Shown here piece after piece: positions 20,757-34,463 of a stretch of 64,000 nt of DNA. The stretch covers positions 541,827-605,826 of the forward strand of contig NZ_JAAAPK010000002.1 of the NCBI RefSeq assembly GCF_009909105.1, written 5' to 3'. This DNA comes from Corallococcus exiguus. GTDB taxonomy: Bacteria > Myxococcota > Myxococcia > Myxococcales > Myxococcaceae. Under the pieces are notes generated by a model. It did no database searches, was not told the origin of the DNA, and was given only the letters and a program-made list of their open reading frames with translations. Every line of letters begins with the position of its first letter. Position 1 is the stretch's first letter. The position numbers were made by a program, and so were the translations under genes.

Positions 20757-22349
20757 ATGGAGGCCGGCGAGCTGCCCAACGTGGCGGCCATCCGCGGGCT
20801 CCGGTTGGATCAGCTGCTGCTGCTCACCACGGGCGCGCTGGTCATCGTGATCGTGGGCCTGTTGGCCGCGCTGTCCGCGAAGACGACGGAGGCGCAGCTC
20901 ACCGCGACGTCGGACCGCTTCACGCAGCGGCTCCAGTCCCAGGCGCGCGAACTGGGCCAGACGGTGAGCCACACGCTGGCGCTCACCTCCGCCACCAGCC
21001 TGCGCGACAACAACTACGCGTTCCTCACGGAAGTGGCGCGCTCCATCATCGCGGACAACCGAAACATCCTGCGCGTGCAGATGTTCGACGCGGACGGGCA
21101 GCTCGTCGCGGACAGCGACCCGTCCGCCAAGCTGGGCGAGTCCTCCGGAGGCCGCACCGCGGAGCGCCGCTGGGCCAGCGCCTTCTTCCAGGGCCAGCCC
21201 GTCTTCGAGTTCCAGGAGCCGCTCGACTACGGCTCGCAGGCCGGCAAGGGCGTGGTCGTCATCAGCTACTCGCTGGAGGACCTGCAGAAGCAGCTGCATG
21301 AGTTGGAGGAGACCAACCGCGCCGCGGTGCGCGCCAACACGCTGCGCATTGTCGGGCTGGGCGTGGGCTTCGTCGTCCTGGCCGGCGTGCTGGCCGCCTT
21401 CCAGAGCCGCCGCATCACCAAGCCGCTGGGCGTGCTCACCCACCGCGTGATGCAGCTGGCCGCCGGTGACCTGGGCGCTCGCGCGGGCACGGCGCCGGGC
21501 GCGGGCCGCGAGGTGACGACGCTGGGCGTGGTGTTCAACCACATGGCGGAGCGCATCAAGGTCCTGCTGGAGGACGTGCGCGCCAAGGCGCAGCTGGAGC
21601 GCGAGGTGTCGCTCGCGCGCACGGTGCAGGAGACGCTCCTGCCGGGCCGCGAGGCCGTGACGGTGGGGCCGCTGCGGCTGGCCGGGCTGGTGGTGCCCGC
21701 GGACGCGTGCGGCGGCGACTGGTGGTTCCGCGCCGCGCTGGACGACCGGCGCGTGGTGATTGGAATCGGAGACGTGACGGGCCACGGTCTGTCCACGTCG
21801 CTGGTCGCCACCAGCGCCACCAGCGGCTTCGCCTCCGCCATGACGCTGCGCGAGCCGTCGCAGGTGCACGCGCAGATGCTGATCACCGCGCTCAACGTGA
21901 CGCTGGCCAACGTGGGCCGCGGCGAGCACCAGATGTCCAGCGCGCTCGCGGTCATCGACGTGTACAGCGGGCAGATTGATTACGCGGCGGGCGCCCACCC
22001 GGCGGCGGCCATCTACAACCGGAACACGCGGCAGATGGCCTCGCTGCCCGCGCGTGGCCCGCTGCTGGGCGCGAACGTCGCCTCGCAGTTCACGTCGCGC
22101 CAGGCGGTGCTGAGCCCCGGCGACATCATCGTCTGGTACACGGACGGCCTCACCGAGGCGCGCGACGGTGCCAACCGGCTCTACGGCACGCAGCGGCTGG
22201 CCGCCGCGCTCCAGACCCACGCCCACCTCCCCGCCGACGCCCTTCGCGACGCGCTCCTCGCGGACGTGCGCGCGTACAGCGCCGGCCAGCCCCAGCGCGA
22301 CGACATCACCGTCATCGTCGCCGAATTCAGCCCCGCCCCCTCGCCTTGA
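20757..22349 (+). CDS. Membrane sensor HAMP-domain PP2C/SpoIIE-type (RsbU-like) serine phosphatase
   Basis: TM1, a periplasmic region of about 150 aa, TM2, HAMP and a SpoIIE/PP2C domain (GIGDVTGHGLSTSL...WYTDGLTEA...DDITVIV). An alternative GTG start lies at 20544 inside ORF 20358-22349. Confidence 0.8.
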   Translation: MEAGELPNVAAIRGLRLDQLLLLTTGALVIVIVGLLAALSAKTTEAQLTATSDRFTQRLQSQARELGQTVSHTLALTSATSLRDNNYAFLTEVARSIIADNRNILRVQMFDADGQLVADSDPSAKLGESSGGRTAERRWASAFFQGQPVFEFQEPLDYGSQAGKGVVVISYSLEDLQKQLHELEETNRAAVRANTLRIVGLGVGFVVLAGVLAAFQSRRITKPLGVLTHRVMQLAAGDLGARAGTAPGAGREVTTLGVVFNHMAERIKVLLEDVRAKAQLEREVSLARTVQETLLPGREAVTVGPLRLAGLVVPADACGGDWWFRAALDDRRVVIGIGDVTGHGLSTSLVATSATSGFASAMTLREPSQVHAQMLITALNVTLANVGRGEHQMSSALAVIDVYSGQIDYAAGAHPAAAIYNRNTRQMASLPARGPLLGANVASQFTSRQAVLSPGDIIVWYTDGLTEARDGANRLYGTQRLAAALQTHAHLPADALRDALLADVRAYSAGQPQRDDITVIVAEFSPAPSP

Positions 22350-22357
22350 CGAATCGC

Positions 22358-24871
22358 ATGCGCCCATTCCTTCGTTCCCCGCGCCGCGTCTCCACCGCGC
22401 TCGCCCTGCTGGCCACCCTGGCCGGTCCGCCGGCGGCGCTCGCCCAGTTCCGCCCGCCGCCCGCCACCGAGGCGCAGCGCATGACGGAGCAGGGCGAGCA
22501 GGCCCTCGTGTCCGCCAACGCCGCCGCCTCCAAGGGTGACAAGAAGGAGGCGGAGGAGAAGTTCAAGAAGGCGCTCCAGCTCTTCGAGCAGGCGCTCACG
22601 CAGGAGCCCCAGTCCGTGTTCGCCGCCGCGGGCCTGGGCAGCGCCGCCAACGCGCTCCAGGACTTCCAGCGCACGGTGACGCGCCTTGCGCCGGTGTTCG
22701 CGCAGAACCCGCAGGAGCTGTCGCTCGCGTACCCGCTGGGCACCGCGTACTTCAAGCTGCGCCGCTTCCAGGAGGCGGTGCCGGTGCTGGAGCAGGTGGC
22801 CGCCGCGGATCAGCCGGACCACCTCATCGTCCACTACTACCTGGCCAGCTACTACCTGTACGTCCAGGACGGGAACCGCGCCGTGACGCGGCTGCAGCGC
22901 TACCTGACGCTGCGCCCGGAGAAGCTCGCGGGCAACGACTTCCAGATCCACGAACTGCTGGGCAAGGCGCATCTCATCCGCCGGGACGCCGTCGCCGCGC
23001 GCGCCTCGTTCGAGAAGGCGCAGGCCGGCCGGGCCGAGTCCGCGACGGCGCAGATCGGCCTCGCGGCCGTGCTGGAGATGGAAGGCCACGTGCCGGAGTC
23101 CCGCGCGCTCCTGGAGCGGCTGGTGACGAAGTTCCCGCAGGTGGCGGAGCCGAAGGAGCGCCTCGCGCGCCTGTACCTGGCCGCGGGCGACGTGCCGCGC
23201 GCGGACCTGCAGGCCACCGCCCTGATGAAGCTGGGCTCCACGCCCGCCGCGCACCTCTTGATGGGTGACGTGCGGCTCGCGCAGAAGCAGCCCGCGCAGG
23301 CGGAAGCGGAGTTCCGCAAGGTGCTGGAGCTGCAGCCGGGCCTGCTCCTGGGACAGATTGCCGTGGGCAAGGCGCTCCAGGCGCAGGCGCGCCACGAGGA
23401 GGCCATCCAGTTCCTGGAGTCCGCCGTGAAGTCGGGTGGCGGCAGCCTGGAGCTGTGGGCGACGCTGGGCTCCGTCAACCGCCGCGCCGGCCGCTACCAG
23501 CGCGCGGTGGAGGTGCACCGGCGCGTGGTGGAGATGGCCCCGCGCCAGGCGCTGGGCCACGTGCTGCTGGGCGCGGATCACTTCGCCACCGGCCAGTGGG
23601 ATCAGGCCATCGAGGACTACGGCAGCGCGCTCCAGGTGGAACCCAACCACCCCGGCGCGAAGCAGTGGCTGGCCCGGGCCCTGGCCCACCGCGCGAGAGA
23701 TCGCGCCGGCACCCAGCGCCTGGAAGACGCCGTGCGCGACCTGCGCCGCGCGTATGACCTGGACCGCTCCGTGCCCATGGCCCGCCGGCTGGGCGCGGCG
23801 CTCCTGGACAGCCACCAGTTCGCGGAGGCCCGCAAGGTGATGGAGGGCGCGGTGACGCTGCCGGGCGCGACCTGGCGCGAGCACCTGTTGCTCGGCTACA
23901 CCCGGCTGGGCGGTGGCGATGCGCAGGCCGCGCTCGCCGCGTTCACCCAGTCAGGTGAGGCCACGCAGGAGCCGGATCAGCGCGCGGAAGCGTCCGCGGG
24001 CGCCGCGCTCGCGGAAGTGGAGCTGGGCCAGGTGGACGCCGCCGTGCAGCGGCTGACGGACGCGGGGCCCTCCAAGACGGCCGCGAAGGTGGCGGAGGCG
24101 AACCTGCCTCGCGTGCTGGTGCGCCGGGCCCTGGCGAAGCTGGAGACGGGCGACGCCGCCGCGGCGAACCGGGACCTGGACGCGGTGGACCGCCTGGGCA
24201 CCGGCAAGCGCGCGGACGTGGCGAAGCTGGCCGCCTTCGCCCGGGCGCTCACGCGCGCGGAAGAAGGGAAGTTCGCGGAGGCCACCGCGGGCCTCAAGCG
24301 CTCCCTCACGCCTGCACCGGAATGGGCGTGGCCCAACACGCGCGCGCTCGCGGACGCGTGGGTGCTCTACCGCCAGGGCAAGGTCGCGCCCTCGCGCAAG
24401 CTGCTCACCGCCGCGCAGAAGAAGCCCATGCCCGGGCAGCCGAAGTGGATGGGCAACCTCACCGGCGCGCTGCTGCGGCGTGAGGCGGCGCTCGCGTACG
24501 CCTCTGGCAACATGAAGGCGTCGGAGAAGGCGCTGAAGGCCGCGCTCGCCGCGACGCCCGACGACGCGCTGGTGCAGCACAACCTGGCGTGCGTGGGCTG
24601 GCGCCAGGGCGACAGCGCTTCGGCGCTCGCGACGTGGAAGCGCCTGGAGACCGCCGTACCTGTCGCCTCGCTCAACCTGGGCATCGACGCGCAGGAGCGA
24701 CGGCATGAACCCGCCGAGGCCGTGGACGCCTGGCGCCGCTACCTGGCTGCTGGCGCGGGCCCCCGCGCTGCCCAGGTGCGGGAATGGAAGGACCGCCTGC
24801 AGGGCCTCTATGGACTGGGTGACGCGCAGGGCGTCACGCCGGCCACCGGGGTCGCGGAGGAGACGCCGTGA
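22358..24871 (+). CDS. Secreted TPR-repeat protein
   Basis: Signal peptide (ALALLATLAGPPAALAQ) followed by many TPR-like helical repeats. Its start overlaps the stop of the upstream phosphatase gene. TTG at 22346 is an alternative start. Confidence 0.75.
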   Translation: MRPFLRSPRRVSTALALLATLAGPPAALAQFRPPPATEAQRMTEQGEQALVSANAAASKGDKKEAEEKFKKALQLFEQALTQEPQSVFAAAGLGSAANALQDFQRTVTRLAPVFAQNPQELSLAYPLGTAYFKLRRFQEAVPVLEQVAAADQPDHLIVHYYLASYYLYVQDGNRAVTRLQRYLTLRPEKLAGNDFQIHELLGKAHLIRRDAVAARASFEKAQAGRAESATAQIGLAAVLEMEGHVPESRALLERLVTKFPQVAEPKERLARLYLAAGDVPRADLQATALMKLGSTPAAHLLMGDVRLAQKQPAQAEAEFRKVLELQPGLLLGQIAVGKALQAQARHEEAIQFLESAVKSGGGSLELWATLGSVNRRAGRYQRAVEVHRRVVEMAPRQALGHVLLGADHFATGQWDQAIEDYGSALQVEPNHPGAKQWLARALAHRARDRAGTQRLEDAVRDLRRAYDLDRSVPMARRLGAALLDSHQFAEARKVMEGAVTLPGATWREHLLLGYTRLGGGDAQAALAAFTQSGEATQEPDQRAEASAGAALAEVELGQVDAAVQRLTDAGPSKTAAKVAEANLPRVLVRRALAKLETGDAAAANRDLDAVDRLGTGKRADVAKLAAFARALTRAEEGKFAEATAGLKRSLTPAPEWAWPNTRALADAWVLYRQGKVAPSRKLLTAAQKKPMPGQPKWMGNLTGALLRREAALAYASGNMKASEKALKAALAATPDDALVQHNLACVGWRQGDSASALATWKRLETAVPVASLNLGIDAQERRHEPAEAVDAWRRYLAAGAGPRAAQVREWKDRLQGLYGLGDAQGVTPATGVAEETP

Positions 24872-25794
24872 AGACGCCATCCCTTGTCGCGCGGGGGAGC
24901 CTCCTGCTCGCCGCCGTGCTGTTCGCCGTTTCCGTTGCCAGCCCCGCGTCCGCCGCGCCGAAAAAGGCCACGCTGGGCGTGTTCCTCGCCACGACGTTGT
25001 CGGACGGTCAGGAGCGCTTCCAGTACGCGGAGGCGCTCGCCCAGAAGCTGGAGGCCAGCCTGGGCCGCCCCGTTGGCGCCAAGAGCTTTGGCCGCTACGA
25101 GGACTTCTCCAAGGCGGTGGGGGAGGGGCAGATCGACTTCGCCGTGGTGGACGGCTGGGCCGCGGTGCAGCTGGGCTCCAAGGCGGATCCGGTGGCGTAC
25201 GCGCCGCGCGCCGGTGAGACGCAGCAGCGCTGGGCCATCATCTCCCTCCAGAAGGGCACCGTGAAGGACCTCGCCGGCAAGCGCATGGCGCTGGTCAAGG
25301 GCGCGGGCTCCGCGGATCCGAAGTTCGTCTCCCACGTCGTGCTGGGCGGCGACCTGGATGCCCAGAAGCACTTCAAGCTGGTGCCGGTGCCCAACGTGGA
25401 GTCGGCGGTGAAGATGCTGGAGGCCAAGGGCGCGGAGGCCGCGCTCGTGCCGGTGGCGCACGTGCCCAAGGACATGCGGGTGCTCTTCAAGAGCAGCCGG
25501 GTGCCGGGCGCCGTGCTGGTGGACCTGAAGGGCGGGGGAGACGCGTTGTCCCAGTCCCTGTCCTCCGTGGGTGCGGTCGCCCCGTTCGACGCCTTCGCCC
25601 GCATCCAGGGCCGCGAGTTCGAGGACTTCCGCAAGCTCGTCACCCAGGGCCCCCCGCGCCGTCAGCCCGTCCTCGCGGACTCTCCCGACCTGCGGGTGGA
25701 GACGCCCGTGCTCGTCCAATCCGAGTCGCTGGGTCCCGCCCTCCCGCCGTTCGTGGACGACCTGGCCGTCTCCGCCGAACAGCCGGATGACTGA
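24868..25794 (+). CDS. PhnD/SsuA-like periplasmic substrate-binding protein (orphan, no ABC permease or ATPase nearby)
   Basis: GTG start overlapping the TPR stop (GTGA). Signal peptide plus phosphonate-binding-protein-like fold. Confidence 0.65.
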   Translation: MKTPSLVARGSLLLAAVLFAVSVASPASAAPKKATLGVFLATTLSDGQERFQYAEALAQKLEASLGRPVGAKSFGRYEDFSKAVGEGQIDFAVVDGWAAVQLGSKADPVAYAPRAGETQQRWAIISLQKGTVKDLAGKRMALVKGAGSADPKFVSHVVLGGDLDAQKHFKLVPVPNVESAVKMLEAKGAEAALVPVAHVPKDMRVLFKSSRVPGAVLVDLKGGGDALSQSLSSVGAVAPFDAFARIQGREFEDFRKLVTQGPPRRQPVLADSPDLRVETPVLVQSESLGPALPPFVDDLAVSAEQPDD

Positions 25795-26090
25795 TTGCGC
25801 CGTGAGCTGATCCGCGCACGGGGTTTCCACCGCCGTGCGCGTGTTTCACCGCGATCGACAGCCATGACTTGGCCTAAGGCGAGTTATTGCGGTAATTTGA
25901 GAAGTCGAGCGGAACGCCACCGTTCAGGGGTGGAAACTCATCCCTGAGAACAATTGCCAGTCGCACCGGCTCTGGTTCCTGGCGCTAGAACCGCGGATAC
26001 CCCCTGCTTCCCCTCGTGGAATTGAGAACGATGGACTCGACTGAGTACGGTGGATCGCGCACCAACGCGGTGAAGGGGTTTGCCGGTCGG
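25795..26090 (+). promoter_or_regulatory. Long, relatively AT-rich leader upstream of the TonB-dependent receptor, carrying inverted repeats
   Basis: GTTTCCACC near 25822 and its inverse GGTGGAAAC near 25931. GC is below the local average. Confidence 0.4.
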
Positions 26091-28631
26091 ATGGGCGCGC
26101 GCGCGTGCCTGACCCTGGTGGTTTGCGCCCTGTCCCTCTTCGCGGTGGAGACGGCCCAGGCCCAGGAGGCCCAGGAGCCCGCCCCCAAGACGCGGACCAA
26201 GGCCCCCCGCAAGCGCGCGGCGACCACGCCGGGCGCCAAGGCCGCCACGCCGGGTGCCAAGGCCGCCACGCCCGGCGCGAAGCCTCCGCGCACGGCGAAG
26301 ACGCGCCGGGGCGCGAAGGCGCAGCCCCCGCCGACGGACGTGGAGCCCATTCCCGGGGACGAGCCCGCCGCGCAGCCGCCGGCGCTCGCCACCGAGCCGC
26401 CGCCCGCGCCGCTCGCCCCCGTGGCCGGCCCTGGCCCGTCCGTTTCGGATCCGCTGCCCGTGGCCTCGCCGTCGCCGTATGACGGGCCGCTGACTTCGGA
26501 CATCCCGTCCAACCCGCCGCCCGCGCCCACGCTGGGTGCCGGCGCGGTGCTCCCGTCGTCACAGCCGCGCACGGCGGACAACGTCCCGGACCGCGCGCCC
26601 TTCACGGAGCCCACCTCCGACCGCGCGCTGCCGCCGCCCTCCAGCCTCTCCGGCCTGGACGGCCCGGACCTGGGCGGTGGCGACGACCTGGAGCAGAACA
26701 TCAACAGGGCGCTGAGCGAGGCCGTCGTCACCACGGCGTCCAAGCGCAGCCAGCGCATCTCCGACGTGCCCCTCACGGTGTCCTGGATTCCGGCGGAGGA
26801 GCTGGAGGGCACCGGCCAGTTCTCGCTCTGCGAGGCCATCCAGTACTTCCCCGGCATGGAGTGCCGCCGGGGCTCCATGCGCAAGGCGGCGGTGAGCGCG
26901 CGCGGCCTGGGCTCCAACTACCTGTCCAACCGCCTCCTGCTCCTCAAGGACGGCCGTCCGCTGACGGACCCCTGGACGGGCCAGTTCTACGCGGATGAGA
27001 CGACGCCGCTCACCAACCTGAAGCAGGTGGAAGTCATCCGCGGCCCGGGCTCGTCGCTCTACGGCTCCAACGCCTTCAGCGGCGTCATCAACATCATCGA
27101 GCGCCAGCCCGCGGACCTCATCGCCAAGGGCCAGAACGTGGGCGCCGACGCGCGCATCCTCGCGGGCCAGGACAAGACCTGGCGCCTGCAGACCAACGTC
27201 GCCGGCCGCGGCGGCCCGGTGGAGGCGCTGCTCGGCTACTACGGCTTCGGCTCGGACGGCCCGCAGCTCTTCAACAACCCGCAGCTGAACCAGACGGACA
27301 CCAACGAGGACTCGCTGGTCCACCAGGTGAACGGCAAGGTCCGCGTGGGTCCTCTCGCGCTGGACGCGGACTTCACGGACGGCAACATCGGCCGGCCCGG
27401 TGGTCAGAACATCTCCACCGTGGGCAACTGCGGCCGCTGCCACTACACCGCGCAGGACAACGAGCACGTCCAGAACCTGAACACCGCCCTGCAGCTGGAT
27501 CAGCAGGTGACGGACAACGTGCGCGTGTTCGCCCAGGCCTACGCCTTCTTCAAGCGCCGCAACGTGACGCTGGAGAATGAAATCACCGGCGCCCTGGAGG
27601 ACACGCTGGGCAAGCGCAGCCGCCTGGGCGGTGAGGCGCGCGCGCTGTTCTCCCTGGACAAGCTCTCCGTCACCGTCGGCGGCGACGTGAAGGCCGACCA
27701 GGTGAACAACCAGAACATCCTGCCCGGCCTGACCCTGGACGACACGAAGCAGACCATCCTGGGCGGCTTCGTGGACGCGGAGTACCGCATCACGGACCGG
27801 CTGGTGGTGGGTGCGGGCGCTCGCTACGACAACTACCAGATCCCCTCCAAGGTCTGGGAGGCGAAGACGGATCAGGTGTCCCCGCGCGCCAGCGTCGTGT
27901 TCCACGCCATCCCGGAGCTGCTCACGCTGCGCACCAACTACGGCCGCGCCTTCCGCGCGCCCACGCTGGCGGAGCTGGCCATCAACCAGCAGATGTACGC
28001 CGCGACGCTCCTGGGCAACCCGTCCCTGCGCGCGGAGACGCTGGACACGGTGGAGGCGGCGGTGGACTTCTGGCCGCTGGACCGCAGGGTGCGCCTGACG
28101 GGCACGGGCTTCTACAACCGCGCCCGCAACTTCATCAATCAGGAGCTCCTCTTCGGCTCCACGTCCCAGTTCAAGAACCTGGGCGACGCGCGCGTGGCGG
28201 GCTTCGAGGCGGAAGCGGCGGCGCAGGTGCCGTCCCTCAACTCGTCCTTCGACGTGGCCTACCAGTTCCTGGACGCCCAGGCGCTGCCGGTGGGCGGCGG
28301 ATCCAGCTACCCGCTGGACTACGCGCCCAGCCACCGCGTCTACCTGCGCGGCCGCACCAACATCGGCAAGTTCGCCTTCGTGGAGCTCTACGGCCTGTTC
28401 GTGGGCGCCCGGTATGATCCGGGCTTCGTGGTGGACGAGAACGCCGGCACCACCACCCGCGTGAAGCTGCCCAGCTACATCACCGCGACCGCGCGCGTGG
28501 GCTTCAACGTCCACGAGCGCGTGGCGGTGTCACTGTTGGGCACGAACCTCTTCAACGCGAAGTACGAGGAGTCCCACGGCTTCCCCGCACCGCCGCTGGG
28601 CGTCTTCACAGAAGTTCGACTCCATTATTAG
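26091..28631 (+). CDS. TonB-dependent outer-membrane receptor with a long low-complexity N-terminal extension
   Basis: Signal peptide, then about 200 aa of Pro/Ala/Lys-rich sequence (3x TPGAKAA), then a plug (VVTTASKRSQRISDVPLTVSWI) and a barrel ending in a C-terminal aromatic residue. Alternative starts at 26016 and 26031. Confidence 0.85.
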   Translation: MGARACLTLVVCALSLFAVETAQAQEAQEPAPKTRTKAPRKRAATTPGAKAATPGAKAATPGAKPPRTAKTRRGAKAQPPPTDVEPIPGDEPAAQPPALATEPPPAPLAPVAGPGPSVSDPLPVASPSPYDGPLTSDIPSNPPPAPTLGAGAVLPSSQPRTADNVPDRAPFTEPTSDRALPPPSSLSGLDGPDLGGGDDLEQNINRALSEAVVTTASKRSQRISDVPLTVSWIPAEELEGTGQFSLCEAIQYFPGMECRRGSMRKAAVSARGLGSNYLSNRLLLLKDGRPLTDPWTGQFYADETTPLTNLKQVEVIRGPGSSLYGSNAFSGVINIIERQPADLIAKGQNVGADARILAGQDKTWRLQTNVAGRGGPVEALLGYYGFGSDGPQLFNNPQLNQTDTNEDSLVHQVNGKVRVGPLALDADFTDGNIGRPGGQNISTVGNCGRCHYTAQDNEHVQNLNTALQLDQQVTDNVRVFAQAYAFFKRRNVTLENEITGALEDTLGKRSRLGGEARALFSLDKLSVTVGGDVKADQVNNQNILPGLTLDDTKQTILGGFVDAEYRITDRLVVGAGARYDNYQIPSKVWEAKTDQVSPRASVVFHAIPELLTLRTNYGRAFRAPTLAELAINQQMYAATLLGNPSLRAETLDTVEAAVDFWPLDRRVRLTGTGFYNRARNFINQELLFGSTSQFKNLGDARVAGFEAEAAAQVPSLNSSFDVAYQFLDAQALPVGGGSSYPLDYAPSHRVYLRGRTNIGKFAFVELYGLFVGARYDPGFVVDENAGTTTRVKLPSYITATARVGFNVHERVAVSLLGTNLFNAKYEESHGFPAPPLGVFTEVRLHY

Positions 28632-28639
28632 GGCGCTGT

Positions 28640-29482
28640 TTGGATACCGTCGCCGCCGTGAAGGATGCTCCCCTGAAGTTGACGCCGGACACGACGCTCA
28701 CGCCGGAGGCGCTGGAGAAGGCCTCCGGAGTGCTGGCCCGGGACGGCCTGTTGTTGGGGCGCGGTGACGACGCGGCGCCGCAGCTGGTGCTGTTCGACGG
28801 GCGGTTCACTCCCGCCCACGCCGCGCTCCTGGAACGCCGTCCCCCGGCGCTGCTGCTGGCCACCCGTGAGGGCGGCCAGCCGTCCGCCTGGGAGGCGCGG
28901 CTGTTGAGCGCGCTGTTGCGCGGCGAGCCCATGATCCCCAAGGAAGCAGCCACGTCCGTGGCGTGGCTGGGCAGCGTGGCGGAGGTGACGGCCGTGGGCG
29001 AGCGCGCGGCCGAGGCCGTCCTCCAGGCTGGCGGCTCCAAGGGCGCGGCCAGCCGGGTGGCGGATGTCGTCCATGAGATTGGCGTGAACGCGCTGCTCGA
29101 CGCGCCAGTGGACGGAAGCGGCGAGCCGAAGTACGCCCACCGGCGCGGCCAGGTGCAGTCGGTGGCGGATGAAGACCGCTGCCTGGTGTCGTGGGCGGTG
29201 GCGGACGGCAGGGCGTGGCTGGAGGCGACGGACCGCTTCGGCCGCCTGTCGGTGTCACCGTTGGTGCGGGTGGTGAAGGCCTGGGGTGAGAAGGCGCAGG
29301 TGGATGCTTCGGGTGGTGGCGCGGGCCTGGGTCTGCGGCGCATCCTGGAGCACAGCGACGCAGTGGCGGTGCGGGTGACTCCGGGAAAGCGCACACAGTT
29401 CGCCTGTGGAGTGGACCTGGGCGACGGTCGCCGTCGGGCCGCGCAGCCCAAGTCGCTGCTGTTCAGTCTGGAACGAGGGTAG
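28640..29482 (+). CDS. GHKL-superfamily ATPase/kinase-like protein (putative RsbW/SpoIIAB-type partner-switching kinase) with a novel N-terminal region
   Basis: TTG start 9 bp after the receptor stop. N-box-like HEIGVNALLDA (compare ELVTNAIIH of SpoIIAB) and G2-box-like GGGAGLGLRRIL. Confidence 0.5.
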   Translation: MDTVAAVKDAPLKLTPDTTLTPEALEKASGVLARDGLLLGRGDDAAPQLVLFDGRFTPAHAALLERRPPALLLATREGGQPSAWEARLLSALLRGEPMIPKEAATSVAWLGSVAEVTAVGERAAEAVLQAGGSKGAASRVADVVHEIGVNALLDAPVDGSGEPKYAHRRGQVQSVADEDRCLVSWAVADGRAWLEATDRFGRLSVSPLVRVVKAWGEKAQVDASGGGAGLGLRRILEHSDAVAVRVTPGKRTQFACGVDLGDGRRRAAQPKSLLFSLERG

Positions 29483-29486
29483 GCGG

Positions 29487-32400
29487 GTGGAGAGCCAAAC
29501 TTCCAATGCCAGCATCACCTCCCTGCGCGTGGGCAGTCTGACCCACGTGCGCGTGGCCGGGGTGATCGACGAAACCTTCCCCCTCACGCCAGCCTCCAAG
29601 GGCATCCAGGGCCTGGTGGTGGTGGACCTGGGCCTGGTGGAGCGGATCAGCTCCTTCGGTGTGCGCCGGTGGATCGAGTTCGCCGGCCACCCGCCGCAGG
29701 GCGTGTCGGGGCTGTACGTCGTCAACGCGCCGCCGGTGGTGGTGGATCAGCTCAACATGGTGGAGGGCTTCGCGGGCGTCGCGCGCGTGCTCTCGCTGTT
29801 GGCGCCGTACACGTGCCGCTTCTGCAAGGAGGACCGGCTGCGGCTGGTCCGCCTGGTGGAGGAGGCGAAGGTGCTGGAGCAGGGCGGGGCCCCGCCGCAC
29901 CAGTGCCCGGTGTGCTCCCAGCCGCTGGAGTTCGCGGACGAGCCCACGGAGTTCTTCGACTTCGCGCGCCGCCAGCAGTTCTCCGCGGTGGATCCCGCGG
30001 TGCTGCGCTACCTGCGCTCCGGCATCCCGTCGGAGCCGTCCGAGCTCTCGTCGCACCTGAAGATCGTCCAGGACGACATCACCTTCATCACCCTGGCCAG
30101 TACGCTCAAGGGCGACCTCAACGTGCGCCGGCTGGCGTCCGGCCTGGAGGGGCGCGTCGCGTTCGACTGCTGCCACGTGAGCGTGGTGGAGCAGGAAGCG
30201 CTGCCGCGCATCGAACAGGTGCTGGAGGTGGCCGCGCAGGGCGCCCAGGTGGTGCTGTGCCGCGTGCCGCCGCCGCTGCTGGCCGTGCTGGCGAAGTCCA
30301 CCAAGACGCTGCCCGCGAAGCTGGCCACGCTGTGGCTGCCGTGTGACTGCCGCAACTGCGGCCAGGTCACCCACCAGCGCATCCAGACCTCCGAGTACCT
30401 GGAGGTGCTGCGCGCCAAGGGCACCATGGAGCGCGTGTGCCCCGTCTGCGGCGGCAGCGCCCGGGCTCCGGCGCTCGCGCAGTTCCAGGGGCTGCTCGCG
30501 CGCACGCCGCTCACCGACAAGCCGCTGGAGGACATCGAGGCGCTGGAGCAGCGCGCGCTCAGTCAGTACCTCTTCGGCTCCACCAACACGGACCCCGGCG
30601 CCCGGGGCTCGTCAGCCACGGACACGCACACCAGCGGCGCGCGGCTGCAGATCATCCGCCGGCTGGGGCAGGGCGGCATGGCGGAAGTGTTTCTCGCCAA
30701 GCAGCAGGGCGTGAAGGGCTTCGAGAAGTTCGTGGTGATGAAGAAGATTCTCGCGCAGTTCGCTGAGAATCCTGAGTTCGTCGACATGCTCTTCGCGGAG
30801 GCCCGCGCCAACGCGCGCCTCACGCACCCCAACGTCGTGCAGACCTTCGACGTGGGCGTGACGGACGGTGTGGCGTACATCCTGATGGAGTATGTGCGCG
30901 GCCCGGACCTGAAGCGCCTGCTCACGGAGCTGCGCCGCAAGGGCATGGCGCTGCCGCTGGAGCACGCGCTGCGCATCGTGGCGGAGGTCGCCGCGGGCCT
31001 GCACTACGCGCACAGCTACGTGGACCCTTCCGGCACGGCGCACCCGGTGGTGCACCGCGACGTCAGCCCCCACAACGTGCTGGTGTCGCTGGACGGCGCC
31101 ATCAAGCTGTCGGACTTCGGCATCGCCAAGGTGCAGGGCGAGGAGCACACGCAGGCGGGCGTCATCAAGGGGAAGATTTCGTATCTCTCCCCGGAGGCCG
31201 CCAGCGGCCGCCCGCTGGACTGGCGCAACGACGTGTTCGCGCTGGGCGTGGTGCTCTTCGAACTGCTCACCGGCCAGCTGCCGTTCCGCCGGGACCATGA
31301 CGCGGCCACGCTCGCGGCCATCGTGCGCGAGCCCGCGCCGGTGCCCTCGCAGCTGCGGCCCCACATCCCGCAGGACGTGTCGGACCTCATCCTGCGCGCG
31401 CTGGTGAAGGACCCGGCGCGGCGCACGCCCTCCGCGGCGGCGATGCGCGAGGAGATTGAAGCCGTCATCGCGCACCACCGGCTGTCCTCGTCGCCCGCGT
31501 CGGTGGCGCAGTTCTTCAAGGAGACGCTGGGCGACCGGCTCTCCGAGTACGCGCCGTCATCCATCGCCGGCCCGGGGACGGGCTCCAACCCCCGGGCGCT
31601 GATGCCGGGCACGGGCTCGCACTCGCGCAACGTGGGCACGGGCTCGGGCAGCGACATGCGGGCCCCCTCGGACCTGTCCCGTCCGCCCGTGCGCGGCGGT
31701 TCCGGCAGCATGCCCCGGATGGAGCCGCCCCCGGTGGCCTCCCCGCCGGAGCCCGCCGAGCGGGGCACCGAGGTCGTCTCCGTCAACGGGCCGCCCATGG
31801 CCTCCGCGCCTCCGGTGGCACCGCCCGTGGCCGCCGCGCCCCGTCCGTCGCGCCCGGCCGCGCCTCCGCCCACGTCGCCGATGCCGCCGCCCACCGCGGT
31901 GCGCCCCGCGGCGTCCGCCAACGTGCCCACGCGCGTGGGGCCGCCGCCGCAGGCGCCCGCGCGTCCGTCGGTGGCGGTGCCGTCCGTCGCCCCGCTGACC
32001 GCGGCTCCGCAGCCGCACCCCGTGGCAGCGCCCCCGTCGCATGGGGGCACCCACGCGCAATACGGGGCCGCCCACGCGCAGCAGGGAAGCGCCCCGCCGC
32101 CGCCGCTGGGGCACCATGCGCCGCCGCCGACCGGCTCCCACGCGGCCTATGGGGGACACCACCCCGTGGCCGCGCCGCCGCCGCACGTGGCTGCCCCGCA
32201 TGCTCCGCCGGTGTCCGCTCCCGTGGCTCCGCCCACGCGGCCTCCGGCGGCTCCCGTGGCCGCGCCGCCGGCCCCCGTCCACGCGGTCTCCCCCACGGCT
32301 CAGGCGCCCGGCGCCGAAGCGACGGGGAAGGGACTGACGCCCGGTCAGCGCAAGGGGCTCATCGTGGGCGGCGTGGGCCTGGTGCTCGCGGGGCTCGCGT

Positions 32401-32831
32401 TGGTGTTCCTGCTGCCCAAGGGCGGCGTGGAGGTGCGCAACGCCCAGGAGGGTGAGCGCGTCTACGTGTCCGGCGTCCTGCTGGATGCGAGCCAGGGCCT
32501 GCCCGAAGGCAACACCGGCTGGCTCATCTCCACGGCCGTGGACGGCAAGCTGCACCGTTTCGGCAAGGTGCCGAAGTCGGAGCACATCGACCTGCGCACG
32601 CTCGCGGACGCCCCGCCCCAGGCGGAGGCCCGGGGCATGCTCAGCATCACTGGTGCCCAAGGCTGCCGCGTGGCGCTGGGCTCGCAGGTGCTGGAGGGCC
32701 AGACGCCCCTGTCCAACCAGATGCCCGCGGGGCGCGAGTTCGAGGTGCGCGTCACCTGCGGCGGCAAGCCCGACGTCGTCCGCTGGGTGATGGCCGTCCC
32801 GGGGCAGGGCGTCGTGCTGGACGTGCCCTGA
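29487..32831 (+). CDS. Tandem-STAS / zinc-ribbon / Hanks-type Ser/Thr protein kinase / Pro-rich / TM / PEGA-like domain protein
   Basis: GTG start 5 bp after the upstream stop. STAS motif VVVDLGLVERISSFGVRRW, CxxC...CxxC ribbons, kinase motifs (AMKKI-like VVMKKIL, HRDVSPHNVLV, DFGIAK, SPE), and a C-terminal TM plus periplasmic domain. Confidence 0.85.
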   Translation: MESQTSNASITSLRVGSLTHVRVAGVIDETFPLTPASKGIQGLVVVDLGLVERISSFGVRRWIEFAGHPPQGVSGLYVVNAPPVVVDQLNMVEGFAGVARVLSLLAPYTCRFCKEDRLRLVRLVEEAKVLEQGGAPPHQCPVCSQPLEFADEPTEFFDFARRQQFSAVDPAVLRYLRSGIPSEPSELSSHLKIVQDDITFITLASTLKGDLNVRRLASGLEGRVAFDCCHVSVVEQEALPRIEQVLEVAAQGAQVVLCRVPPPLLAVLAKSTKTLPAKLATLWLPCDCRNCGQVTHQRIQTSEYLEVLRAKGTMERVCPVCGGSARAPALAQFQGLLARTPLTDKPLEDIEALEQRALSQYLFGSTNTDPGARGSSATDTHTSGARLQIIRRLGQGGMAEVFLAKQQGVKGFEKFVVMKKILAQFAENPEFVDMLFAEARANARLTHPNVVQTFDVGVTDGVAYILMEYVRGPDLKRLLTELRRKGMALPLEHALRIVAEVAAGLHYAHSYVDPSGTAHPVVHRDVSPHNVLVSLDGAIKLSDFGIAKVQGEEHTQAGVIKGKISYLSPEAASGRPLDWRNDVFALGVVLFELLTGQLPFRRDHDAATLAAIVREPAPVPSQLRPHIPQDVSDLILRALVKDPARRTPSAAAMREEIEAVIAHHRLSSSPASVAQFFKETLGDRLSEYAPSSIAGPGTGSNPRALMPGTGSHSRNVGTGSGSDMRAPSDLSRPPVRGGSGSMPRMEPPPVASPPEPAERGTEVVSVNGPPMASAPPVAPPVAAAPRPSRPAAPPPTSPMPPPTAVRPAASANVPTRVGPPPQAPARPSVAVPSVAPLTAAPQPHPVAAPPSHGGTHAQYGAAHAQQGSAPPPPLGHHAPPPTGSHAAYGGHHPVAAPPPHVAAPHAPPVSAPVAPPTRPPAAPVAAPPAPVHAVSPTAQAPGAEATGKGLTPGQRKGLIVGGVGLVLAGLALVFLLPKGGVEVRNAQEGERVYVSGVLLDASQGLPEGNTGWLISTAVDGKLHRFGKVPKSEHIDLRTLADAPPQAEARGMLSITGAQGCRVALGSQVLEGQTPLSNQMPAGREFEVRVTCGGKPDVVRWVMAVPGQGVVLDVP

Positions 32832-32904: not shown

Positions 32905-33297
32905 CTACAGCTTCTTCAGCAGGAAGGCCCGGTACGTGCCGTAGCCCGGCAGGTCCTCGCCGAGCGAGCCGTCCACCTTCGCGCGCAGGGTGAGCGTGCC
33001 GTCCGTCAGGTCCAGCGTGAAGCCCGGCGCGTCCTTGTGGACGATGTGCAACGTCTGGATGCCTTCCCGGACGGCCTGCTTTCCGATGGCGTCGCTACAG
33101 ACGGACTTCATGTCGTCGATGAGCCGGTCGAAGACGCCGTTGGAGAGCATCTGGATGGCGGCCACGGTGGTGAAGCTCGCCTCGTCCAGCGTCACCTGGA
33201 TGTCCGCGCCCGCCGCGGCCTCCTTCAGCTCCGCCACCTTCGAGGCGAAGGTGTCGTTCTTGAACGCGGCCATCTCCGACCGTTCGGCGAGACCCAT
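32905..33297 (-). CDS. SCP2 sterol-carrier-like domain protein
   Basis: SCP2 fold signature (LRAKVDGSLGEDLPGYGTYRAFLLKKL at the C-terminus). Confidence 0.65.
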   Translation of the reverse strand: MGLAERSEMAAFKNDTFASKVAELKEAAAGADIQVTLDEASFTTVAAIQMLSNGVFDRLIDDMKSVCSDAIGKQAVREGIQTLHIVHKDAPGFTLDLTDGTLTLRAKVDGSLGEDLPGYGTYRAFLLKKL

Positions 33298-33932: not shown

Positions 33933-34463
33933 ATGCGCAGACACCGCCGCATCATCGGAGTGTTCGGCTCCGGGGCGCACTCCCACGACGAGTGGGTCGT
34001 CCCCCTGGCGCGGTGGATTGCGGAGGCCGGGTTCGACCTGCTCACCGGCGCGGGTGGCGGCGTCATGAGCGTGGCGGCGGGGGCCTTCGTCCAGGTGGAG
34101 GGGCGGCGGGGGGCGGCCATCGGCATCATCCCCGGCACCGTGGGCGCGGACGGCCGTTACCAGCCCCGGGCCGGCTACCCGAACACGGACATCGAAATCC
34201 CCATCTACACCCACCTGCCGCTCAGCGGGGAGCAGGGCACGGACCCCATGAGCCGCAACCACATCAACGTGCTGACGCCGCATGCCCTGGTCGCGCTGCC
34301 CGGGGGCGCCGGCACCGCGGCGGAGGCCGTCCTGGCCTTGCGCTATGGCAAGCCGCTCATCCTGCACGGGCCACCGGAGCTGTTCCGGCGCTTCCCGGTG
34401 GAGGCCGAGCGCACCACCTCCCTGGAGCGGGTGGCCGAGTTCCTCCTGGCCGCCACCCGCTAG
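33933..34463 (+). CDS. LOG / TIGR00725-family Rossmann-fold nucleotide-binding protein
   Basis: GAGGGVMS and PGGAGTAAE motifs typical of LOG/SLOG proteins. Confidence 0.7.
   Translation: MRRHRRIIGVFGSGAHSHDEWVVPLARWIAEAGFDLLTGAGGGVMSVAAGAFVQVEGRRGAAIGIIPGTVGADGRYQPRAGYPNTDIEIPIYTHLPLSGEQGTDPMSRNHINVLTPHALVALPGGAGTAAEAVLALRYGKPLILHGPPELFRRFPVEAERTTSLERVAEFLLAATR

What the first reader, a model, noticed from the sequence alone, without database searches (positions are those of the whole stretch)
29487..32831. Unusual architecture: tandem STAS, zinc ribbons, Ser/Thr kinase, Pro-rich linker, TM helix and PEGA-like periplasmic domain
The first 300 aa contain two STAS-like domains. The first carries a conserved DLGLVERISSFG phospho-serine motif. 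Each is followed by CxxC...CxxC ribbons. A complete Hanks kinase comes next, then a ~260-aa Pro/Ala-rich low-complexity region, a TM helix and a ~170-aa extracytoplasmic domain. Fusing an anti-sigma-antagonist (partner-switching) input to a transmembrane eukaryotic-like kinase is not a described arrangement, as far as I know.
Basis: partly seen in the sequence, partly recalled or inferred. Interest (0 to 1): 0.6.

Follow-up and report, generated by a model that had tools for sequence, protein, structure and literature searches.

The report
STAS-tethered membrane kinase with RsbW-like partner
A Corallococcus membrane Ser/Thr kinase really does carry two anti-sigma-antagonist (STAS) domains with zinc ribbons, and it sits beside an unannotated RsbW-like kinase and a SpoIIE-type phosphatase, so it looks like a partner-switching circuit whose output is a eukaryotic-like kinase rather than a sigma factor.

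Summary

The fusion is not an artefact. Full-length orthologues exist in over 25 genomes, including M. xanthus DK1622 (the gene next to MXAN_4558). It is also not unprecedented: STAS-kinase fusions were noted in Sorangium in 2010, and the module has at least 454 clusters at 50% identity.

Best reading: a partner-switching-like module with the STAS tethered to its output. Phosphorylation of Ser56 is inferred, not shown.

The parts
20757..22349 (+). Membrane sensor phosphatase: two TM helices flanking a ~155-aa periplasmic loop with weak Cache hits, then HAMP, then a SpoIIE-type PP2C domain. The ORF is open from 20337; 20757 is the first ATG. Orthologue of MXAN_4562.
   Evidence: Pfam SpoIIE E 2.8e-38 and HAMP E 4.8e-9. 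TM helices and candidate starts. 84% identical to the M. xanthus gene at the same position in the cluster. MXAN_4562 is the only SpoIIE-like phosphatase of M. xanthus (PMC2887360).
22358..24871 (+). Secreted TPR-repeat protein (signal peptide MRPFLRSPRRVSTALALLATLAGPPAALAQ)
   Evidence: Pfam TPR families. Signal-like N-terminus. Conserved in the cluster.
24868..25794 (+). Periplasmic binding protein of the Phosphonate-bd (PhnD-like) family. Its start overlaps the TPR stop by 4 nt.
   Evidence: Pfam PF12974 E 1.7e-10. Signal peptide. Conserved in the cluster.
26016..28631 (+). TonB-dependent outer-membrane receptor (MXAN_4559 orthologue) with a ~230-aa Pro/Ala-rich N-terminal extension
   Evidence: Pfam Plug + TonB_dep_Rec_b-barrel. 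Conserved directly upstream of the GHKL gene in Myxococcaceae and Archangiaceae.
28640..29482 (+). 280-aa 'hypothetical' protein (MXAN_4558 orthologue). The N-terminal part is an alpha/beta domain (aa 1-130). The C-terminal part is a SpoIIAB/RsbW-type GHKL ATP-binding domain (aa ~131-280; nt 29030-29479) with an N box at E146/N150, a G1 box at D198-x-x-G201 and a G2 box at G225-G231. The start may instead be GTG 28658.
29487..32831 (+). The gene of the finding: a 1114-aa membrane-anchored Hanks-type kinase with an N-terminal tandem [STAS + Zn ribbon] module
29499..29810 (+). STAS domain 1 (aa 5-108). It lacks the SpoIIAA alpha1 helix. It carries the invariant motif R53-I-S55-S56-F-G-V-R-R-W62; the S56 codon is nt 29652-29654.
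29811..29936 (+). Four-Cys zinc-ribbon 1 (C110, C113, C140, C143)
   Evidence: Beta-hairpins in the AF2 model.
30042..30341 (+). STAS domain 2 (aa 186-285). The position equivalent to S56 is Gln here, and Pro/Ala/Glu/Asp in relatives, so it is not phosphorylatable.
   Evidence: hhalign D1 vs D2 E 1.4e-29. Residue counts. STAS/STAS_2 hits on this domain in relatives.
30342..30470 (+). Four-Cys zinc-ribbon 2 (C288, C291, C318, C321)
30642..31466 (+). Hanks-type kinase domain (aa 386-660): Gly loop G394-V401, K419, H523-R-D525, N530, D543-F-G, S568-P-E. The catalytic loop reads HRDVSPHN, with Ser where Ser/Thr kinases usually have Lys.
   Evidence: Pfam Pkinase E 1.2e-41. Motifs. The family-wide loop is HRDVSP.
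31527..32321 (+). Pro/Ala-rich low-complexity linker (aa 681-945); its length varies among orthologues
   Evidence: Composition. Orthologue lengths of 991-1164 aa.
32355..32414 (+). Single TM helix (aa 957-976), preceded by the basic stretch RKG
   Evidence: Hydropathy 2.77.
32415..32828 (+). 138-aa extracytoplasmic domain. The last ~63 aa (nt 32640-32828) are PEGA-like. Two Cys residues (C1060, C1091) are invariant among orthologues.
   Evidence: Alignment A4. PEGA is hit in 9 of 17 orthologues, best E 1.2e-5, but not in the window copy.

Best explanation
The gene encodes a membrane-anchored Hanks-type Ser/Thr kinase. Its cytoplasmic N-terminus is a duplicated [STAS + zinc-ribbon] module.

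Two other genes in the same six-gene, same-strand cluster complete the circuit. One is the RsbW/SpoIIAB-like GHKL gene 4 nt upstream. The other is the HAMP-SpoIIE PP2C phosphatase that heads the cluster. Together they form a partner-switching-like circuit in which the STAS 'antagonist' is covalently tethered to its output.

Proposed mechanism:
1. Unphosphorylated STAS1 docks the GHKL protein.
2. The GHKL protein phosphorylates Ser56, the equivalent of SpoIIAA Ser58.
3. The membrane PP2C removes the phosphate in response to a periplasmic cue. The TonB-dependent receptor, periplasmic binding protein and TPR protein are encoded between the phosphatase and the GHKL gene.
4. The phosphorylation state of STAS1 decides whether the Hanks kinase domain is held inactive or released.

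Shown here: the identity of the domains, the duplication, the invariant Ser at the SpoIIAA position, the GHKL fold of the neighbour and the conserved gene linkage.

Inferred: that the GHKL protein is the Ser56 kinase, that the PP2C is its antagonist, and that the read-out is Hanks kinase activity.
For: STAS fold.
- An orthologue passes the Pfam STAS cutoff.

Ser56.
- S56 aligns with SpoIIAA S58 (the SpoIIAA sequence was verified).
- All 132 relatives examined keep the Ser-centred motif (or a close variant).
- This includes relatives with no Hanks kinase at all: the GAF-cyclase, PDZ and TM-only variants. That argues against the fused kinase being the general Ser56 kinase.

The neighbour is SpoIIAB/RsbW-like.
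- Foldseek E 1e-5.
- Invariant N, G1 and G2 motifs.
- One relative passes the Pfam HATPase_c cutoff.

Gene linkage.
- The GHKL gene lies immediately upstream in about 50 Myxococcaceae and Archangiaceae loci.
- It lies within 6 kb in 14 of 16 Kofleriaceae/Polyangia loci that are only 26-33% identical.
- It lies next to the kinase-less members L085 and L088 (E 3e-40 and 2.7e-44).

The PEGA ectodomain moves between the partners.
- It is on the kinase in Myxococcaceae.
- It is on a second, membrane-anchored GHKL paralogue in Kofleriaceae, where the kinase is tail-anchored.

Phosphatase.
- HAMP-SpoIIE is in the same cluster here and in M. xanthus.
- It remains nearby after rearrangement in L060 and L061. 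Weaker PP2C matches occur in L059, L072 and L073.
- MXAN_4562 is the only SpoIIE-like phosphatase in M. xanthus (PMC2887360).

Precedent. In Anabaena, the STAS-glycosyltransferase All4160 is controlled by the phosphatase HenR and the kinase Alr3423 (PMC13555669).
Against: - No phosphorylation has been shown. S56 could be conserved for structural reasons, as the N-cap of helix alpha2.
- The window's GHKL protein has no significant sequence match to Pfam, to PDB or to SpoIIAB (hhalign E 0.29). Its assignment rests on a predicted structure plus motifs.
- Its G1 box is D-x-x-G rather than D-x-G-x-G.
- No sigma factor or other obvious 'switched' partner is encoded in the cluster.
- Recent paralogues in Archangium, Vitiosangium and Cystobacter (L039, L042, L043, L049, L051, L055) lack an adjacent GHKL gene. 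So do some other architectures (P0210, P0157).
- The kinase catalytic loop lacks the usual Lys (HRDVSPHN), so output activity is itself unproven.
- The role of the zinc ribbons and of STAS2 is unexplained.
Confidence: 0.5

Rival explanations
1. Ser56 is an auto- or trans-substrate of the fused Hanks kinase domain. On this view the RsbW-like protein is not the Ser56 kinase. It is the partner that unphosphorylated STAS1 sequesters, in the role of an anti-sigma-like effector.
For: A Hanks kinase can phosphorylate a STAS protein in trans: M. tuberculosis PknD phosphorylates Rv0516c (PMC1847690). Most family members have STAS and kinase in one chain. Several family members lack a nearby GHKL gene.
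Against: The Ser motif is equally invariant in members with no Hanks kinase: GAF-cyclase P0157/P0170/P0173, PDZ P0185/P0201/P0223, and P0283. Two of these (P0185, P0283) have the GHKL gene adjacent. The GHKL protein keeps all the ATP-binding motifs. PknD phosphorylates Rv0516c at a different site, not the canonical Ser.
Confidence: 0.15
2. The tandem STAS-ribbon module is not a phospho-switch. It is a constitutive scaffold or ligand/redox sensor, with the zinc-thiolate ribbons acting in dimerisation or nucleotide binding as proposed for other STAS domains. The GHKL neighbour is a non-catalytic binding subunit of a membrane complex.
Against: The [TS]-S-[FY]-G motif at the N-terminus of alpha2 is the hallmark of phosphorylatable STAS proteins and is present in all 132 relatives examined. 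A SpoIIE-type PP2C is retained in or near the cluster in divergent lineages. In the GHKL family, Glu, Asn and the Gly-rich lid are invariant.
Confidence: 0.25
3. The long ORF is an assembly or frameshift artefact that joins a STAS gene to a kinase gene.
For: Some database entries for relatives are clearly chimeric or frameshifted: P0005, and P0007 which fuses the GHKL gene to the N-terminus.
Against: The coding signal is continuous. The same full-length ORF occurs in over 25 independent genomes, including the complete chromosomes of C. coralloides, C. exercitus, M. xanthus DK1622 and Archangium gephyra. The helix linking ribbon 2 to the kinase is conserved in the alignment.
Confidence: 0.01

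Closest known systems
SpoIIAA/SpoIIAB/SpoIIE and RsbV/RsbW/RsbU partner-switching modules (Bacillus)
   Same: The three component types are the same: a STAS domain with a Ser at the start of helix alpha2, a small GHKL serine kinase of the SpoIIAB/RsbW fold, and a SpoIIE-type PP2C phosphatase. They are encoded together.
   Different: The STAS is not a free protein; it is fused, in two copies, to a Hanks kinase. Each STAS lacks helix alpha1 and carries a 4-Cys ribbon. No sigma factor is encoded in the cluster. The GHKL protein has an extra N-terminal alpha/beta domain and is not recognised by Pfam. The phosphatase is a membrane receptor with HAMP.
Anabaena All4160 / HenR / Alr3423 (PMC13555669)
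   Same: A STAS domain is fused directly to the enzyme it regulates. A PP2C phosphatase and a partner kinase set the STAS phosphorylation state, with no sigma factor involved.
   Different: The output there is a glycosyltransferase with a single STAS. Here the output is a Hanks kinase with tandem STAS-ribbon units, and the kinase/phosphatase genes are clustered with it. Nothing here has been tested experimentally.
M. tuberculosis PknD - Rv0516c (PMC1847690) and the multidomain Rv1364c (RsbU-RsbW-RsbV fusion; PDB 3ke6)
   Different: In M. tuberculosis the STAS is a separate substrate phosphorylated at a non-canonical site. Rv1364c contains no Hanks kinase.
STAS (COG1366)-ELK fusions noted in Sorangium cellulosum (Treuner-Lange 2010, PMC2887360)
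   Same: The same type of fusion was noticed in a myxobacterium. The same paper singles out MXAN_4562 as the only SpoIIE-like phosphatase of M. xanthus.
   Different: It is a one-sentence genomic remark. It does not mention the tandem unit, the zinc ribbons, the conserved Ser, the GHKL neighbour or the link to MXAN_4562.
SiaA/SiaB/SiaC (Pseudomonas aeruginosa)
   Different: SiaC is a free DUF1987 protein and the output is a diguanylate cyclase bound in trans.

Membership tests
STAS domain (Pfam PF01740/PF13466; SpoIIAA-like fold) | SpoIIAA-like alpha/beta fold | tested here: met
STAS domain (Pfam PF01740/PF13466; SpoIIAA-like fold) | Sequence score above the Pfam gathering threshold | tested here: inconclusive
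   The window copy scores 18.9 bits for STAS_2 against a cutoff of 29.2. Orthologue P0136 scores STAS 24.7 > 22.6 on domain 1. P0173 scores STAS 26.3 on domain 2 and P0191 scores 26.2 on domain 1. hhalign of domain 1 vs SpoIIAA gives E 1.6e-5.
STAS domain (Pfam PF01740/PF13466; SpoIIAA-like fold) | Phosphorylatable Ser/Thr at the N-terminus of helix alpha2 (SpoIIAA S58) | tested here: met
   In domain 1, S56 aligns with S58 and all 132 relatives examined keep the Ser motif. Domain 2 does not meet this feature: Gln here, Pro/Ala/Glu/Asp elsewhere. Actual phosphorylation cannot be tested here.
STAS domain (Pfam PF01740/PF13466; SpoIIAA-like fold) | Helix alpha1 between beta2 and beta3 | tested here: not met
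   There is an 8-residue gap opposite SpoIIAA alpha1 in the hhalign alignment, and no helix between E18-27 and E42-54 in the model. This is a trimmed STAS variant.
Hanks-type (eukaryotic-like) Ser/Thr protein kinase | Pfam Pkinase above threshold, with Gly loop, beta3 Lys, HRD Asp, catalytic Asn, DFG and APE-like motif | tested here: met
   143.3 bits against a cutoff of 31.7. GQGGMAEV at 394, K419, HRD 523-525, N530, DFG at 543 and SPE at 568.
Hanks-type (eukaryotic-like) Ser/Thr protein kinase | Catalytic-loop Lys (HRDxKxxN) | tested here: not met
   The loop is HRDVSPHN. In the relatives this position is Ser in 100 of 132 and Lys in 4 of 132. The consequence for activity is unknown.
SpoIIAB/RsbW-type GHKL serine kinase (upstream gene 28640-29482) | Bergerat fold closest to anti-sigma serine kinases | tested here: met
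SpoIIAB/RsbW-type GHKL serine kinase (upstream gene 28640-29482) | N box (E...N), G1 (DxGxG) and G2 (GxGxG) ATP-binding motifs | tested here: inconclusive
   E146, N150, D198, G201 and G225-G231 are invariant in 19 homologues, and they line up with the SpoIIAB motifs. However, G1 reads D-R-F-G, and the profile-sequence score is not significant (E 0.29).
SpoIIAB/RsbW-type GHKL serine kinase (upstream gene 28640-29482) | Pfam HATPase_c / HATPase_c_2 above threshold | tested here: inconclusive
   The window copy has no hit. Of 19 homologues, one scores 0.0089. Seven PEGA-bearing paralogues score 17-24 bits, below the 27.4 cutoff. L088:3816-4931 scores HATPase_c 27.1 > 26.4 and matches the family HMM at 2.7e-44.
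SpoIIAB/RsbW-type GHKL serine kinase (upstream gene 28640-29482) | Phosphorylates a STAS Ser and binds a sigma factor | not testable with these tools
   No sigma factor gene lies in the conserved cluster. Enzymology is needed.
Partner-switching module | STAS, GHKL kinase and SpoIIE/RsbU-type PP2C encoded together | tested here: met
   Window genes 20757-22349, 28640-29482 and 29487-32831 lie on one strand with 4-9 nt gaps or a 4-nt overlap, except one 222-nt gap. The same arrangement occurs in M. xanthus. The phosphatase is retained after rearrangement in L060 and L061.
PEGA domain (PF08308) | Pfam match to the C-terminal ectodomain | tested here: inconclusive
   The window copy has no hit even at E 10. 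Nine of 17 orthologue ectodomains hit PEGA, best E 1.2e-5. 'PEGA-like' is fair for the last ~63 aa only.
Zinc ribbon (rubredoxin-like 4-Cys knuckles) | Two CxxC pairs about 27 residues apart, conserved | tested here: met
   C110/113/140/143 and C288/291/318/321 are conserved in 112-122 of 122 aligned relatives. There are weak Pfam hits to zf-Di19 and RUBY_RBDX. Metal binding cannot be tested here.

The most novel reading that the evidence does not exclude
The pair [tandem STAS-zinc-ribbon module + 'dark' RsbW-like GHKL protein] is an undescribed transmembrane signalling cassette found so far only in Myxococcota. In it, a GHKL serine kinase and a receptor PP2C write and erase one phospho-serine on a STAS that is tethered to interchangeable outputs: a Hanks kinase, a GAF-adenylate cyclase, or a PDZ/periplasmic domain. 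This would be a direct hierarchical link from partner-switching to eukaryotic-like kinase signalling. It would also give the sole SpoIIE-type phosphatase of M. xanthus (MXAN_4562) its substrate.
Probability: 0.4. Interest if true: 0.72.

Novelty: new variant of a known kind. Interest (0 to 1): 0.6.

Why it matters
Myxobacteria encode about a hundred eukaryotic-like kinases, and very few have a known input.

This locus offers a concrete, testable input pathway for one conserved receptor kinase, the neighbour of MXAN_4558 in M. xanthus. It suggests a phospho-serine switch on a tethered STAS domain, set by a previously unrecognised RsbW-like kinase. The eraser would be the only SpoIIE-type phosphatase that M. 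xanthus possesses, whose function is unknown.

The analysis also defines two protein families that current domain libraries miss:
- the [STAS + 4-Cys ribbon] x2 module, with at least 454 clusters at 50% identity;
- its GHKL partner.

The module is reused on kinases, cyclases and PDZ proteins. If the mechanism holds, it extends partner-switching from sigma-factor control to direct control of Hanks kinases.

Tried and rejected
Searches that gave nothing useful:
- Sequence-only searches were nearly blind to the non-kinase parts. Pfam and NCBIfam on the window copy gave only a sub-threshold STAS_2 hit and nothing for the upstream gene.
- A PDB profile search with the N-terminal alignment returned kinases, because the alignment included the kinase N-lobe, plus Prestin STAS at E 1.5.
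- PDB searches with the upstream protein or its family profile returned only chance nanobody and TBP hits.
- hhalign of the GHKL family vs SpoIIAB was not significant (E 0.29).
- The promoter/terminator scan was at chance level, so the operon structure rests on spacing only.
- The tandem-repeat search found nothing in the Pro/Ala linker.
- The afdb50 fold library was unavailable, so there is no UniProt-level taxonomy of the module.
- The representatives search included about 90 kinase columns. The counts at E < 1e-3 and E < 1e-10 are therefore inflated by ordinary kinases. Only the E < 1e-30 count is used, on the reasoning that the ~90 kinase columns alone cannot reach that score. All 150 listed hits, the weakest at 9e-60, cover the STAS module.
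- Perez et al. 2008 (the myxobacterial kinome paper) is not held.
- Searches for MXAN_4557, 4558 and 4562 found no functional work.

Ideas considered and dropped:
- Gene-fusion artefact.
- Defence-system kinase. The NCBIfam MADS6 and PglW hits are kinase-domain-only and far below cutoff.
- A receiver-domain assignment for the N-terminal half of the GHKL protein. There is no Response_reg hit, even in P0135, so it is left as 'alpha/beta domain, family unknown'.

Full report
**1. What is at the coordinates**

The window has about 70% G+C. Its genes are 93-97% identical to Corallococcus proteins.

A single ORF runs 29406-32831 (+). It lies 4 nt after the stop (29480-29482) of the upstream gene. 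It also agrees with the N-termini of homologues.

Third-position G+C is 0.87-0.99 in every 300-nt block of the gene. The same full-length ORF (991-1164 aa) is present in more than 25 independent genomes. These include the complete chromosomes of C. coralloides, C. exercitus, Archangium gephyra and M. xanthus DK1622, where it is the gene next to MXAN_4558. The fusion is real.

**2. Domain anatomy**

Kinase domain:
- Pfam finds a Hanks kinase at aa 388-653 (E 1e-41).
- The Gly loop, K419, HRD, N530, DFG and SPE are all present.
- The catalytic loop reads HRDVSPHN. Ser replaces the usual Lys, and this holds across the family (Ser in 100 of 132 relatives, Lys in 4).

N-terminal 375 aa:
- In the window copy this region gives only a sub-threshold STAS_2 hit (18.9 bits).
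- Relatives cross the Pfam STAS threshold on domain 1 (P0136, P0191) and on domain 2 (P0173).
- Profile-profile comparison of aa 5-165 with aa 186-345 gives probability 99.8%, E 1.4e-29 over 141 columns. The region is therefore a tandem duplication of a [STAS + four-Cys ribbon] unit.
- The eight Cys residues are conserved in 112-122 of 122 aligned relatives.

The Ser motif:
- Domain 1 aligned to SpoIIAA (sequence verified against PDB) gives E 1.6e-5. The alignment places S56 opposite the phospho-acceptor S58.
- SpoIIAA helix alpha1 is deleted in this protein.
- All 132 relatives examined carry the motif R-I-[TS]-S-[FY]-G-[VI]-R-x-W or a close variant of it.
- Domain 2 has Gln, Pro, Ala, Glu or Asp at the equivalent position and cannot be phosphorylated there.

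C-terminal to the kinase:
- a 265-aa Pro/Ala-rich linker (Pro 26%, Ala 19%);
- one TM helix (aa 957-976);
- a 138-aa ectodomain.

PEGA is not detected in the window copy. It is detected in 9 of 17 orthologue ectodomains (best E 1.2e-5). 'PEGA-like' is acceptable for the last ~63 residues only.

**3. The surroundings change the picture**

The upstream gene:
- The 280-aa gene at 28640-29482 has no Pfam, NCBIfam or PDB sequence match.
- Alignment of 19 homologues shows invariant residues E146, N150, D198, G201 and G225-G231. The pattern resembles the N, G1 and G2 boxes of GHKL ATPases.
- A family member (L088:3816-4931; E 2.7e-44 to the family HMM) passes the Pfam HATPase_c threshold.
- The N-terminal 130 aa form an alpha/beta domain that I could not assign.

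The cluster:
- Five genes upstream on the same strand lies a membrane HAMP-SpoIIE PP2C phosphatase. Gaps within the cluster are 4-9 nt or a 4-nt overlap, except one 222-nt gap.
- Between the phosphatase and the GHKL gene lie a secreted TPR protein, a PhnD-like periplasmic binding protein and a TonB-dependent receptor.
- The same six-gene order occurs in M. xanthus (MXAN_4562 down to the kinase).
- The TPR-PhnD-receptor-GHKL-kinase part is conserved across Myxococcaceae and Archangiaceae.
- According to Treuner-Lange et al. 2010 (PMC2887360), MXAN_4562 is the only SpoIIE-like phosphatase in M. xanthus.

**4. How general is the linkage**

Size and spread of the module:
- A profile search of 1.8 billion representatives found 454 clusters at E < 1e-30. 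All 150 listed hits cover the tandem STAS module.
- Every organism named so far is from Myxococcota. However, the genome scan used narrow patterns and the afdb50 library was unavailable.
- The module occurs N-terminal to Hanks kinases (most cases). It also occurs C-terminal to them with a PDZ domain, between two kinase domains, on GAF-adenylate cyclases, on TM-PDZ proteins, and on a TM protein with no kinase.

Where the GHKL gene is adjacent:
- about 50 orthologous loci;
- 14 of 16 Kofleriaceae/Polyangia loci whose STAS module is only 26-33% identical, often in two copies;
- two kinase-less members, L085 and L088.

Where it is absent:
- next to recent paralogues in Archangium, Vitiosangium and Cystobacter;
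- next to the three other architectures checked.

The moving PEGA domain:
- In the Kofleriaceae-type loci the kinase ends at its TM helix and has no ectodomain.
- There, a second GHKL paralogue carries a TM helix (predicted in 6 of the 7 examined) and a strong PEGA domain (E down to 9e-24).
- The PEGA ectodomain therefore moves between the two proteins in different lineages. That argues that they work as one membrane complex.

The phosphatase:
- A SpoIIE-type PP2C stays near the pair after rearrangement in L060 and L061.
- Weaker PP2C matches lie near the pair in L059, L072 and L073.

**5. Mechanism**

The parts list matches a partner-switching module: STAS with the canonical Ser, a SpoIIAB/RsbW-type kinase and a SpoIIE-type phosphatase. 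There is no sigma factor, and the STAS is tethered to an enzyme.

The closest worked example is Anabaena All4160. It is a STAS-glycosyltransferase that is switched off by phosphorylation and controlled by the phosphatase HenR and the kinase Alr3423 (PMC13555669).

I therefore propose the following:
1. The GHKL protein phosphorylates S56.
2. The receptor PP2C reverses this in response to a periplasmic cue.
3. The state of STAS1 gates the Hanks kinase.

The alternative is that the fused Hanks kinase phosphorylates its own STAS. PknD-Rv0516c (PMC1847690) is a precedent for a Hanks kinase acting on a STAS protein in trans. This is less likely as a general rule. The Ser motif is just as invariant in family members that have no Hanks kinase, and two of those members (P0185, P0283) keep the GHKL neighbour.

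A non-phospho scaffold or redox-sensor role cannot be excluded. All phosphorylation steps are inferred.

Three things remain unexplained: the zinc ribbons, STAS2, and the Lys-less catalytic loop.

**6. Known or new**

Its novelty claim is too strong. STAS-kinase fusions were mentioned for Sorangium in 2010, and public annotations of close homologues already list STAS + Pkinase.

I found no description of any of the following:
- the duplicated STAS-ribbon unit;
- the Ser motif;
- the GHKL partner family;
- the link to the SpoIIE phosphatase cluster;
- any functional work on the M. xanthus orthologues.

I rate it a new variant of a known kind of system, of moderate-to-good interest. It can be tested directly in M. 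xanthus.

Noticed in passing
L069:8762-10723, L080:8342-10171, L079:3791-5671, L076:8347-9969, L078:523-2283, L072:3-2111(-), L068:8594-10225(-): In Kofleriaceae-type loci a second, larger paralogue of the GHKL protein carries a strong periplasmic PEGA domain, with a TM helix predicted in 6 of the 7. The adjacent STAS-kinase is tail-anchored with no ectodomain. The PEGA domain has therefore changed host protein between lineages.
   Followed up: partly
P0157, P0170, P0173 (GAF + Guanylate_cyc); P0185, P0201, P0223 (PDZ); L085:1559-3598 (P0283, TM + unknown ectodomain): The tandem STAS-zinc-ribbon module is also fused to non-kinase outputs. All of these keep the Ser motif and the eight Cys residues, except P0201, which has Asp at one of the eight Cys positions.
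   Followed up: partly
L084:1-6004 and L085:4686-7112: FIST-domain sensor proteins lie directly next to two unrelated members of the STAS-ribbon family. One of them is a 2489-aa protein with four FIST/FIST_C pairs.
   Followed up: no
L059 (orthologue from a groundwater Myxococcales MAG), last ~40 aa of the kinase ORF: This orthologue ends in ...GGCAAAPGAGSALALLALFGRRRRPR after the PEGA-like domain. The tail looks like a MYXO-CTERM-type sorting signal, which is odd on an inner-membrane kinase.
   Followed up: no
window 26016-26700 (repeat at 26224-26282): The TonB-dependent receptor has a ~230-aa Pro/Ala/Lys-rich N-terminal extension before the plug. It includes a 21-nt x 2.8 tandem repeat encoding ATPGAKA. 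No STN signalling domain was detected.
   Followed up: no
window 30642-31466 (kinase catalytic loop, aa 523-530): The catalytic loop is HRDVSPHN, with Ser in place of the conserved Lys. This holds for 100 of 132 family representatives. It is either a distinct active subtype or reduced activity.
   Followed up: partly
L039, L042, L043, L049, L051, L055: Archangium, Vitiosangium and Cystobacter genomes carry a second paralogue that is 62-67% identical in the STAS module. It has no adjacent GHKL gene. In L042 and L043 it also has only a short C-terminal tail instead of the ectodomain.
   Followed up: partly
window 32905-33297 (-): A 130-aa ORF convergent with the kinase gene has strong coding bias (GC3 0.93) but no Pfam or NCBIfam family. 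It was found again in only one other locus (L005, 73% identical).
   Followed up: no
window 33933-34463 (+) and 35018-39304 (+): Downstream lie a SLOG cluster-4 (LDcluster4) protein and a 1428-aa adenylate/guanylate cyclase-AAA_16-TPR (STAND-like) protein. The SLOG gene is also downstream of the kinase in several Corallococcus, Hyalangium and related loci, but not in M. xanthus.
   Followed up: no
P0005 and P0007 (database entries): Two public protein entries for relatives are chimeric. P0007 joins the GHKL gene to the STAS N-terminus through a frameshift. P0005 joins STAS1 to an unrelated STAS-cNMP protein. Such entries could mislead domain-architecture counts.
   Followed up: no
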